This document shows, piece by piece, positions 18,918-31,090 of a stretch of DNA of 64,000 bases. The position numbers were made by a program, and so were the translations under genes. This stretch comes from the human T2T-CHM13v2.0 reference genome, Homo sapiens. The stretch lies in the NCBI RefSeq assembly GCF_009914755.1, contig NC_060925.1; one strand, written 5' to 3'. The notes under the pieces were generated by a model. It saw only the letters and a program-made list of their open reading frames with translations, searched no databases and was not told the DNA's origin. The first letter of the stretch is position 1, and the number at the start of each line of letters is the position of its first letter.

Positions 18918-19139
18918 TGGGGCTCTTTTTTTTTATTATACTTTAAGTTTTAGGGTACATGTGCACAACGTGCAGGTTTGTTACATATGTATACATGTGC
19001 CATGCTGGTGTGCTGCACCCAGTAACTTGTCATTTAACATTAGGTATATCTCCAAATGCTATCCCTCCTCCCTCCTCCGACCCCACAACAGTCCCCGGTG
19101 TGTGATGTTCCCCTTCCTGTGTCCATGTGTTCTCATTGT

Positions 19140-23117
<3,978 letters not shown>

Positions 23118-23180
23118 TATGATGTTAGCTGGTTATTTTGCTCGTTAGTTGATGCAGTTTCTTCCTAGCCTCGACGGTCT

Positions 23181-24190
23181 TTACAATTTGGCATGTTTTT
23201 GCAGTGGCTGGTACCGGTTATTCCTTTTCATGTTTAGTGCTTCCTTCAGGAGCTCTTTTAGGGCAGGCCTGGTGGTGACAAAATCTCTCAGCATTTGCTT
23301 GTCTGTAAAGGATTTTATTTCTCCTTCACTTATGAAGCTTAGTTTGGCTGGATATGAAATTCTGGGTTGAAAATGCTTTTCTTTAAGAATGTTGAATATT
23401 GGCCTCCACTCTCTTGTGGCTTGTACAGTTTCTGCCGAGAGATCAGCGCTTAGTCTGATGGGCTTGCCTTTGTGGGTAACGTGACCTTTCTCTCTGGCTG
23501 TCCTTAACATTTTTTCCTTCATTTCAACTTTGGTGAATCTGACAATTATGTGTCTTGGAGTTGCTCTTCTCAAGGAGTATCTTTGTGGCATTCTCTTTAT
23601 TTCCTGAATTTGAATATTGGTCTGCCTTGCTAGATTGGGGAAGTTCTCGTGGATAATATCCTGCAGAGTGTTTTCAACTTGGTTCCATTCTCCCCGTCAC
23701 TTTCAGGTACACCAATCAGACGTAGATTTGGTCTTTTCACATAGTCCCATATTTCTTGGAGGCTTTGTTTCTTTTTATTCTTTTTTCTCTAAACTTCTCT
23801 TCTCACTTCGTTTCATTCATTTGATCTTCCATCACTGACACCCTTTTTTCCAGTTGATCAAATCGGCTACTGAGGCTTCTGCATTCGTCATGTAGTTCTT
23901 GTGCCTTGGTTTTCAGCTCCATCAGGTCCTTTAAGGACTTCTCTGCATTGGTTATTCTAGTTAGCCATTCATCTAATTTTTTTTCAAGGTTTTTAACTTC
24001 TTTGCCATGGGTTCGAACTTCCTCCTTTAGCTCGGAGTAGTTTGATCATCTGAAGCCTTCTTCTCTCAACTCGTCAAAGTCATTCTCCATCCAGCTTTGT
24101 TCCATCGCTGGTGAGGAGCTGTGTTCCTTTGGAGGAGGAGAGGTGCTCTGATTTTTAGAGTTTTGTTTTTCTGCTCTGTTTTTTCCCCAT
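23181..24190 (-). pseudogene. L1 ORF1p remnant (frameshifted)
   Basis: ORF 23181-23591 'RRATPRHIIVRFTKVEMKEKML..YPAKLSF..QKHAKL'; ATG at 24190. Confidence 0.95.
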
Positions 24191-25299
24191 CTTTGTGGTT
24201 TTATCTACCTTTGGCTTTGATGATGGTGATGTACAGATGGGGTTTTGGTGTGGATGTCCTTTCTGTTTGTTAGTTTTCCTTCTAACAGTAAGGACCCTCA
24301 GCTGCAGGTCTATTGGAGTTTGCCGGAGGTCCACTCCAGACCCTGTTTTCCTGGGTATAAGCAGCGGAGGCTGCAGAACAGCAGATATTGGTGAACAGCA
24401 AATGTTGCTGTCTGATTGTTCCTCTGGAAGTTTTGTCTCAGAGGAGTACCTGGCCGTGTGAGGTGTCAGTCTTCCCCTACTGGGGCATAGGACCCTCTGA
24501 GCCAGGTGTGGGATATAATCTCCTGGTGTGCCGTTTGCTAAGACAGTTGGAAAAGCGCAATATTAGGGTGGGAGTGACCCGATTTTCCAGGTGCCATCTG
24601 TCACCCCTTTCTTTGACTAGGAAAGGGAATTCCCTGACCTCTTGCACTTCCCTGGTGAGGCGATGCCTCACCCTGCTTTGGCTCATGCTCTGTGTGCTGC
24701 ATCCACTGTCCTGCACCCACTGTCTGTCACTCCTCAGTGAGATGAACCCAGTACCTCAGCTGGAAATGCAGAAATCACCCATCTTCTGTGTCGTTCACGC
24801 TGGGAGCTGTAGACTGGAGCTGTTCCTATTCGGCCATCTTGGCTCCACCAATCTGGGGCTCTTTCTATGCCAAAAAAAAAAAAAAATAGATTTACTCTAT
24901 TCCTCTTACAGGGTGTATTGTATTCTAGTGAGTAGGTATATTTTCTTGGCTGTTCCTTTACTGATGAACTTTAGGATGTTTACAATTTTTTGTGATTACA
25001 AACAATGTCAGAATGAAGATACCTGTAAAAACCTCATTGAATATGTATATGAATGTTTTTCTATACAAAAATTATAATCACTGGGCCATTAAGTATATTT
25101 AATATTCTAATAGTTAAATTTTCTTTTTAAATGGCTTACCAATTTAATCTTCCACCAGTAGCCTTCTAGTGTATTGATTTTCCCCAAAATCTTGTCTTGA
25201 TAAGTGTGTTGATTTTTGCTAATCTAATGGGTATAAAAATGGGGCTTCTCTCTTTATGTTTTAAGTTAAAATATAACATTATTTTTAAAAATATGGGTT

Positions 25300-25757
25300 T
25301 TTTGCCCTACAAAACTATATTTTAAAAGTATTACACAGTAAAATTAGCTGTTTTCTTTTTGATGTAGAGTTCTAGAAACTTTAACACATGCACAGTTGGG
25401 ACTCTCTCTCCCCTTTTCCTACCCCTGGCAAACACTGATCTCTTCTCCATCATTGTAGTGTTGTCCTTTTGAGAATGTCACATAAATGGAATCATACAGT
25501 ATGTAACATTTTAAGGTTTGCTTCTTTTATTCAGCATAATGCTTTTGAGATTCATGAGACTTGTTCCATAATATCAAGAGGTTTTTCCTTTTAATTGCCT
25601 AGTAATATTCCACCATACACTTTTATCAGCGTTTGTTTATTCACTCACCCAATGAAGGACATTTGGGGTGTTTCAGTTTTTTGAAATTGTGGATACAGCT
25701 GCTGCAAACATTTGTGTCAGGTTTTTATGTGAACATACGTTTTCATTTCCCTAGAGA
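25300..25757 (-). mobile_element. Old L1 (L1MC/MD-like) 3' part; continues after 31091
   Basis: 'acccctggcaaacactgatc..ataaatggaatcatacagtatg..gagattcat..gaaggacatttggg..gtgaacatacgttttcatttc'; sequence resumes after the TSD. Confidence 0.8.
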
Positions 25758-26074
25758 AAATACCAAGGGGTATCCCCATTCCAAGATAGCCAAATAGGAA
25801 CAGCTCCAGTCTGCAGCTCCCAGCATGATTGATGCAGAAGACAGGTGATTTCTGCATTTCCAACTGAGCCTCCACTGGTGATACCCAGGCAAACGGGGTC
25901 TGGAGTGGACATCCAGCAAACTCCAACAGACCTGCAGCTGAGGCACCTGACTGTTAGAAGGAAAACTAACAAACAAAAAGGAATAGCATCAACATCAACA
26001 AAAAGGACATCCACACCAAAACCCCATCTGTAGGTCATCAACATCAAAGACCAAAGGTAGATAAAACCACAAAA

Positions 26075-27100
26075 ACCAGGAGAATCTAGAGCAGAAAAGC
26101 TGAAAATTCTAAAAACCAGAGCGCCTCTTCTCCTCCAAAGGATCGCAGCTCCTCGCCAGCAATGGAACAAAGCTGGATGGAGAATGACTTTGATAAGTCG
26201 ACAGAAGCAGGCTTCAGAAGGTTGGTAATAATGAACTTCTCCGAGCTAAAGGAGGATGTTCAAACCCATCGCAAGGAATCTAAAAACCTTGAAAAAAGAC
26301 TAGATGAATGGCTAAGTAGAATAAACAGTGTAGAGAAGACCTTAAATGACCTGATGGAGCTGAAAACCATGGCATGAGAACTACGTGACGCATGCACAAG
26401 CTTCAACAGCTGATTTGAACAAGTGGAAGAAAGGGTATCAGTGATTGAAGATCAAATTAATTAAATAAAGTGAGGAGAGAAATTTAGAGAAAAAAGAGTA
26501 AAAAGAAACGAACAAAGCCTCCAAGAAATATGGGACTATGTGAAAAGACAAAATCTACGTTTGATTGGTGTACCTGAAAGTGACGGGGAGAATGAAACCA
26601 AGTTGGAAAACACTCTTGAGGATATAATCCAGAAGAACTTCCCCAACCTAGGAAGGCAGGCCAACATTCAAATTCAGGAAATACAGAGAACACCACAAAG
26701 ATACTCCTTGAGAAGAGCAACCCAAAGACACAAAATTGTCAGATTCACCAAGGTTGAAATGAAGGAAAAAATGTTAAGGACAGCCAGAGAGAAAGGTCAG
26801 GTTACCCACAAAGGCAAGCCCATCAGACTAACAGCAGATTTCTCAGCAGAAACTCTACAAGCCAGAAGAGAATCAGGGCCAATACTCAACATTCTTAAAG
26901 AAAAGAATTTTCAACCCAGAATTTCATATCCAGCCAAACTAAGCTTCATAAGTGAAGGAGAAATAAAATCCTTTACAGACAAGCAAATGCTGAGAGATTT
27001 TGTCACCACCAGGCCTGCCTTACAAGAGCTGCTGAAGTAAGCACTAAACATGGAAAGGAACAACCGGTACCAGCCACTGCAAAAGCATGCCAAAATGTAA
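26075..27100 (+). pseudogene. L1 ORF1p remnant (start codon lost, internal stops)
   Basis: 'MEQSWMENDFD..', 'NLRLIGVPESDGEN..YPAKLSF'; usual ATGGGG start replaced by 'accagg'. Confidence 0.93.
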
Positions 27101-27162
27101 AACCATCGATGCTAGGAAGAAACCACACCAACTAATGGGCAAAATAACCACCTAATATCATA

Positions 27163-30903
<3,741 letters not shown>

Positions 30904-31090
30904 GTGGGTGGGGGTGGGAGGCAGGGGGAGGGATCGCATTGGGAGAAATACCTAATGTTGGTGACGAGTTGATGGGTGCAGCAAACCAACATGGCACATG
31001 TATACCTATGTAACAGGCCTGCACGTTGTGCTTATATACCCTAGAACTTAAAGTATAATAATTAAAAAAATTAGCAAATACCAAGGGGTA

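What the first reader, a model, noticed from the sequence alone, without database searches (positions are those of the whole stretch)
25773..25900. Spliced L1 integrant (SpIRE, 97/790-type): 5'UTR intron removed exactly at GT-AG
Seen: the 5'UTR jumps at 25868/25869 from ...CCAACTGAG directly to CCTCCACTGGTGATACCC. The unspliced neighbour L1 shows both intron ends on its sense strand: donor CTGAG|GTACTG (~24755) and acceptor CTGTTCTGCAG|CCTCCGCTG (~24370). A perfect 15-bp TSD flanks the element. Established: L1 RNA spliced from the ~+97 donor to the ~+790 acceptor can retrotranspose, giving promoter-crippled SpIREs. Inference: this copy came from a spliced RNA and was promoter-defective on arrival.
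Basis: partly seen in the sequence, partly recalled or inferred. Interest (0 to 1): 0.7.

Follow-up and report, generated by a model that had tools for sequence, protein, structure and literature searches.

The report
Spliced LINE-1 fossil, undercounted 97/853 class
This is a dead LINE-1 copy missing about 716 bases of its front end between exact splice signals, so it likely came from a spliced RNA and likely arrived with a crippled promoter; it belongs to a known class (SpIRE97/853) that has at least 52 separate insertions in this genome, against 9 published.

Summary
The L1 at 25773-31072 (+) joins CTGAG|CCTCC at 25868/25869. Against four same-type unspliced relatives it lacks one 692-718-nt block that can be read GT...AG. 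It has a 15-bp perfect TSD (0 of 5000 by chance). Larson 2018 S1 Data gives this junction as SpIRE97/853; 97/790 joins to ACCTGCAG, and a 97/790 pattern finds only the four published loci. The locus is absent from Larson's S1 Table. The same junction occurs at 79 places in the genome. The 65 inspected fall into 52 distinct insertions: 7, 31 and 14 in three 5'UTR types whose introns are about 750, 716 and 1030 nt. The nine published copies fall in the first two types; the 14 oldest are unlisted. Spliced copies are not one clade, so splicing recurred. Promoter loss is inferred, and orthologs were not testable. Verdict: a new member of a known kind, whose class is about six times larger and older than published.

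The parts
25755..25772 (+). 5' target-site duplication (18 bp with one mismatch; 25758-25772 perfect); implied endonuclease nick site 5'-TTCT/C on the bottom strand
25773..25868 (+). L1 5'UTR exon 1 (96 nt), ending at the +97 splice donor
25868..25869 (+). splice junction CTGAG|CCTCC = SpIRE97/853; about 716 nt of 5'UTR missing
   Evidence: same junction at 79 genomic places
25869..26072 (+). retained 3' part of the 5'UTR, with the unused 790/916-type acceptor (AG at 25928-25929) and the 25-nt extra block that marks type B
26073..27100 (+). ORF1 remnant (start codon lost, stops); approximate bounds
   Evidence: Pfam PF02994, PF17490, PF17489
27163..30903 (+). ORF2 remnant (endonuclease, reverse transcriptase), broken by stops, frameshifts, an A-run expansion near 27370-27407 and a 43-nt insertion near 28252
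   Evidence: Pfam PF14529, PF03372, PF00078
30903..30904 (+). second deletion of about 205 nt (ORF2 end and start of 3'UTR); ends are not GT-AG and it is private to this copy
30904..31072 (+). 3'UTR end and short decayed A-tail
31073..31090 (+). 3' target-site duplication (31076-31090 perfect)
24371..24754 (-). comparator: intron of the neighbouring L1, GT...AG, shortened to 384 nt by an internal deletion

Best explanation
This dead L1 lacks one block of its 5'UTR between the +97 donor and the 853-type acceptor and is flanked by a target-site duplication, so it likely arose when a spliced L1 RNA was reverse-transcribed into this site, and it likely arrived with most of its internal promoter gone. 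Steps: (1) a full-length L1PA6/7-age source was transcribed and the spliceosome removed the ~716-nt 5'UTR intron (inferred from exact, recurrent ends); (2) both reading frames lie downstream of the acceptor, so the RNA would still make ORF1p/ORF2p and integrate in cis by target-primed reverse transcription (TSD shown; cis mobility shown by Larson for 97/622); (3) it would not copy itself further (inferred), and later decayed (shown). It is one of at least 52 separate such events.
For: Single gap of 718, 714, 716, 692 nt against 4 of 4 same-type relatives, readable as GT...AG with only AG shared. Junction identical to published SpIRE97/853; Larson recovered this splice by RT-PCR from a reporter carrying the acceptor (section 16). 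78 pattern matches, reversed control 0; 65 inspected give 52 distinct flanks; 44 of 52 read AG|CC, the other 8 differ by one base. Same ends in three 5'UTR types with introns of 734-758, 692-718 and 1014-1054 nt; type C relatives, chosen without regard to splice sites, show AG in 7 of 8 and GT in 6 of 7. One clade rejected, AU p 1e-32; 3 of 39 and 1 of 39 nearest relatives are spliced. TSD beyond chance; flanks continue one old antisense L1 fragment to within about 4 nt. Positive control: 4 of 4 published 97/790 recovered.
Against: No primate ortholog could be examined. The AG of the type A/B comparators was part of the search pattern, so it is not independent. For type B alone the one-clade test is weak (p 0.0105, group named after seeing the tree), the tree is star-like, and the spliced label is somewhat clustered (23 of 500 shuffles as low), so a few shared sources are not excluded. 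3 of 39 spliced neighbours is above the ~2.5% rate. The A-tail is short and the nick site is a variant (TTCT/C). This copy also has a non-splice deletion, so DNA-level deletions do occur here. Promoter loss is untested.
Confidence: 0.93

Rival explanations
1. It is a SpIRE97/790.
For: Same donor; total length about 5.3 kb resembles the listed 97/790 copies (5331-5342 bp), but here 205 nt of that shortening comes from a separate 3' deletion.
Against: 97/790 junction is CTGAG|ACCTGCAG; that acceptor is retained 61 nt downstream here; the 97/790 pattern finds four other loci only.
Confidence: 0.01
2. The gap is a DNA-level deletion after or during insertion, joined at the shared AG.
For: This copy and its neighbour each carry another, non-splice deletion; the 2-nt AG overlap could serve as microhomology.
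Against: The same ends recur at 52 separate insertions in three 5'UTR types of different length, while the non-splice deletion is private.
Confidence: 0.02
3. A spliced L1 stayed mobile, for instance under a host promoter, and this copy descends from such a source rather than from its own splicing event.
For: A 97/622 SpIRE co-opted the RAP1GDS1 promoter and made progeny (10.1101/2025.02.02.635956, passages). Type B holds 31 of 52 copies; the type-B-only test is weak; nearest rows by path are spliced copies.
Against: One clade of all spliced copies is rejected; no starred branch joins this copy to another spliced one; 36 of 39 nearest relatives are not on the spliced list; no shared 5' extra sequence among type B flanks.
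Confidence: 0.04

Closest known systems
SpIRE97/853 (Larson et al. 2018, PMC5860796)
   Same: Same donor, same acceptor, same junction letters; TSD-flanked; type B marker block shared with clones labelled L1PA6.
   Different: This locus is not among the nine listed. The class has at least 52 insertions here, 43 unlisted, 14 in an older 5'UTR type with a ~1030-nt intron that holds none of the nine.
SpIRE97/790 (Belancio 2006 as cited by Larson; Larson 2018)
   Same: Same +97 donor; intra-5'UTR splice; ORF1 start region left in place.
   Different: Acceptor 61 nt further downstream; four reference copies, L1PA1-PA2 only.
SpIRE97/622 (Larson 2018)
   Same: Same donor; the class in which promoter loss was measured (about 7-fold versus 267-fold over empty vector).
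   Different: Upstream acceptor, ~524-nt intron, 116 listed copies peaking in L1PA3.

Membership tests
SpIRE97/853 | G98U99 donor joined to the A851G852 acceptor | tested here: met
   Junction matches S1 Data 97/853 clones; gap readable as GT...AG against 4 of 4 relatives
SpIRE97/853 | Target-site duplication | tested here: met
   15 bp perfect, 18 bp with one mismatch; 0 of 5000 by chance
SpIRE97/853 | 3' poly(A) tract and endonuclease consensus site | tested here: inconclusive
   Tail short and decayed; site reads TTCT/C, a variant that also occurs in Larson's table
SpIRE97/853 | L1 body with ORF1 and ORF2 | tested here: met
   Pfam L1 ORF1 domains, endonuclease and RT in 4 of 5 stretches; both frames broken
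SpIRE97/853 | Reduced promoter activity | not testable with these tools
   Measured for 97/622; inferred here
SpIRE97/853 | Junction present from the time of insertion (orthologs) | not testable with these tools
   The genome has no relatives in the collection
SpIRE97/790 | Donor joined to A788G789 (junction CTGAG|ACCTGCAG) | tested here: not met
L1PA6 versus L1PA7 | Best match to a subfamily consensus | not testable with these tools
   No consensus library held; groups with Larson's L1PA6-labelled clones; from recall this 5' end is L1PA7-like and type C L1PA8-like, unchecked

The most novel reading that the evidence does not exclude
97/853 is the ancestral and main 5'UTR splice of the older primate L1 lineage: at least 52 insertions rather than 9, reaching into L1PA7/PA8-age subfamilies (roughly 35-45 million years) where no SpIRE has been listed. 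With about 2-3% of near-full-length copies spliced, the leak looks roughly constant through time while the preferred acceptor moved from 853 to 622 to 790 as the 5'UTR was remodelled, giving a dated fossil record of L1 splicing.
Probability: 0.65. Interest if true: 0.5.

Novelty: new member of a known kind. Interest (0 to 1): 0.35.

Why it matters
The single locus is an inert fossil and matters little. The census matters modestly to L1 specialists: the published catalogue used probes built on a young L1 with a >95% identity cut, lists 9 copies of this class and none older than L1PA6. Finding 52, with 14 in an older type, would push germ-line L1 splicing back in time and make acceptor choice per subfamily measurable, a direct test of the idea that host-driven 5'UTR remodelling shifts L1 splicing.

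Tried and rejected
97/790 label: rejected. Second splice at 30903: rejected, ends not GT-AG and private; 14 of 20 other loci cover 197-200 of the 200 positions, 2 cover 143-162, and 4 end earlier or have their own larger deletion. One spliced lineage: rejected overall. Two automatic classifiers were noisy (one search left 10 unassigned and misplaced some; one search was pulled by the 25-nt block shared by types B and C, giving 37/8/7); counts use diagnostic columns, with only 6 columns for type C. L022 was dropped from divergence figures (20.8% from this copy, apparently mixed with a flanking L1); L013, L016, L025 were too short; L032, L044 (long branches) and two duplicated copies were left out of the second tree. 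Rfam scan of 23500-27000 gave two chance-level hits. The LINE-1 ribozyme paper (PMC11620745; passages, section 13, one supplement table) did not give its place in the L1, so overlap with the junction is unknown. Khan 2006 and Belancio 2006/2008 were not held under the ids tried, so subfamily consensus sequences and those lists were not seen.

Full report
Observation. The element runs 25773-31072 on the + strand. It reads CCAACTGAG|CCTCCACTGGTG at 25868/25869, 96 nt from its start. The minus-strand neighbour has 384 extra nt at this point, 24754..24371, beginning GT and ending AG. That neighbour intron is itself shortened by about 360 nt, so I fetched better comparators. Of 16 loci picked by hand from the first 100 rows of an acceptor search, 11 had a normal intron of 692-758 nt starting GT, one had a different splice-type junction (L038) and four had no donor in the stretch. 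Against the four that share this copy's 5'UTR type, the window element shows one gap of 718, 714, 716 and 692 nt, with only AG shared between the ends. The TSD is 15 bp perfect, 18 bp with one mismatch; 0 of 5000 random flank pairs reached 15. Both flanks align at 62-63% to consecutive parts of an antisense L1 3' region, so the target was an old L1 fragment and lost nothing. ORF1, endonuclease and RT remnants are confirmed by Pfam and are broken.

Class. I read Larson et al. 2018 (PMC5860796): abstract, sections 5 (parts 1-2 of 4), 16, 17 (part 1), 21, 39 (part 1), the whole S1 Table and passages of S1 Data; figures were not available. S1 Data shows 97/790 as CCATCTGAG|ACCTGCAG and 97/853 as CCAACTGAG|CCTC... 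This copy is therefore 97/853. A 97/790 pattern with up to 3 mismatches finds exactly four loci, on the chromosomes and near the positions of the four published ones, which also serves as a positive control. No row of S1 Table names RPS6KC1 or L1PA7/PA8, and no 97/853 row is on chromosome 1.

Census. The junction pattern gave 78 matches with up to 3 mismatches, reversed control 0; one search added one. All 56 hits outside acrocentric short arms and 9 of the 23 on them were inspected. The 65 fall into 52 distinct 5' flanks; 14 share one flank and are duplicates of one insertion. The 14 acrocentric hits not fetched probably belong to it. Diagnostic columns split the 52 into 7 type A, 31 type B (this copy) and 14 type C. 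The nine published copies map to 2 type A (labelled L1PA5) and 7 type B (L1PA6 or PA4-PA6); six were matched by sequence in S1 Data passages and three by chromosome and approximate position only. Type C relatives have introns of 1014-1054 nt, with GT in 6 of 7 donors found and AG in 7 of 8 acceptors. A rough rate for type B is 13 exact spliced against 514 exact unspliced donors, about 2.5%; the 514 include some type C and duplicates. These counts are lower bounds.

Age. Half the mean pairwise non-CpG difference in ORF2 is 2.9% (A, 3 rows including the neighbour), 3.3% (B, 8 rows) and 4.7% (C, 5 rows); the ORF2 tree separates C from A+B at 100/99 and A at 98/97. Since Larson's labels make A younger than B, and C is more diverged and on the far side, C is older than anything in the published list (inference). 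Scaling from Larson's 27 million years for L1PA6 puts C near 38 million years (inference). From recall, B looks like L1PA7 and C like L1PA8; no consensus library was available to check.

Independent events or a lineage. In trees of exon 1 plus 960 nt after the junction, spliced and unspliced copies interleave; one clade is rejected (AU p 2e-59 with 41 rows; 1e-32 with 37 rows). For 13 type B rows alone p is 0.0105, with the group named after the tree was seen. Type C formed a spliced-only branch there because no unspliced type C was sampled; a search with a type C post-junction stretch found 1 spliced among 39 nearest relatives, and the same test for this copy found 3 of 39. Recurrent splicing is the best reading; a few shared sources inside type B are not excluded.

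Mechanism. Shown: exact ends, recurrence, TSD, decay. From Larson: the donor lies in a RUNX3 site, this acceptor is used in cells when present (section 16), intra-5'UTR spliced RNA still makes ORF1p, and the 97/622 5'UTR gives about 7-fold versus 267-fold reporter activity. Inferred: this copy integrated in cis from a spliced RNA and could not be re-transcribed well. A second deletion of about 205 nt at 30903 is private and not GT-AG. Per the hub's annotation the window lies in the RPS6KC1 span with no exon of the selected transcript; the element is in the same orientation, and I have no evidence of an effect on the gene.

Novelty. Searches for 'SpIRE' with its full name, 'SpIRE97', 'SpIRE97'+'L1PA7', 'SpIRE'+'L1PA8'+'spliced', 'spliced L1'+'L1PA7' and 'SpIREs'+'older subfamilies' found no larger or older catalogue. 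I saw passages only of 10.1101/429613, 10.1101/2025.02.02.635956 and PMC9252281; bioRxiv supplements are closed and subscription papers are not searched, so an unseen list may exist. Verdict: real, ordinary in mechanism, mislabelled by one acceptor, unlisted, and a pointer to a class about six times larger and older than published.

Noticed in passing
L038 (G000:C1:104735370-104735402): A 97/622-type junction (509-511-nt gap) in a type B L1, not in Larson's table. One search lists several more with the same CTCTGAAG variant (C2:149155832, C23:67209687, C23:79609619, C1:90090964 and others), so 97/622 may also reach older subfamilies than published.
   Followed up: partly
L012, L027, L028, L054, L071, L076-L084: One type C spliced L1 has been copied by segmental duplication to at least 14 and probably 28 places: acrocentric short arms and contigs C1, C3, C9 and C24.
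   Followed up: partly
L013 (G000:C4:29855232 region; Larson 97/853-3 by position): Listed as a 3' truncation without TSD, but a 17-nt near-repeat (2 mismatches) sits at both ends of the ~340-nt element; it may be a TSD-flanked insertion of a short spliced RNA.
   Followed up: no
window 18926-24855 (-): Neighbour L1, head-to-head with the SpIRE about 920 nt apart and 91.6% identical; type A; 11-bp TSD AAAGAGCCCCA; ~360-nt internal 5'UTR deletion near 24481 with short C-rich overlap; a short L1 3' end inserted in its ORF2 at 21970-22107.
   Followed up: partly
window 27368-27407 and 28252-28294: An A-run expanded to about 40 nt in the endonuclease region and a 43-nt A-ended insertion in ORF2.
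   Followed up: no
window 25780-25791: Relatives read AAGATGGCC where this copy reads AAGATAGCC; by recall this is the YY1 site, so the remaining promoter motif has also decayed.
   Followed up: no
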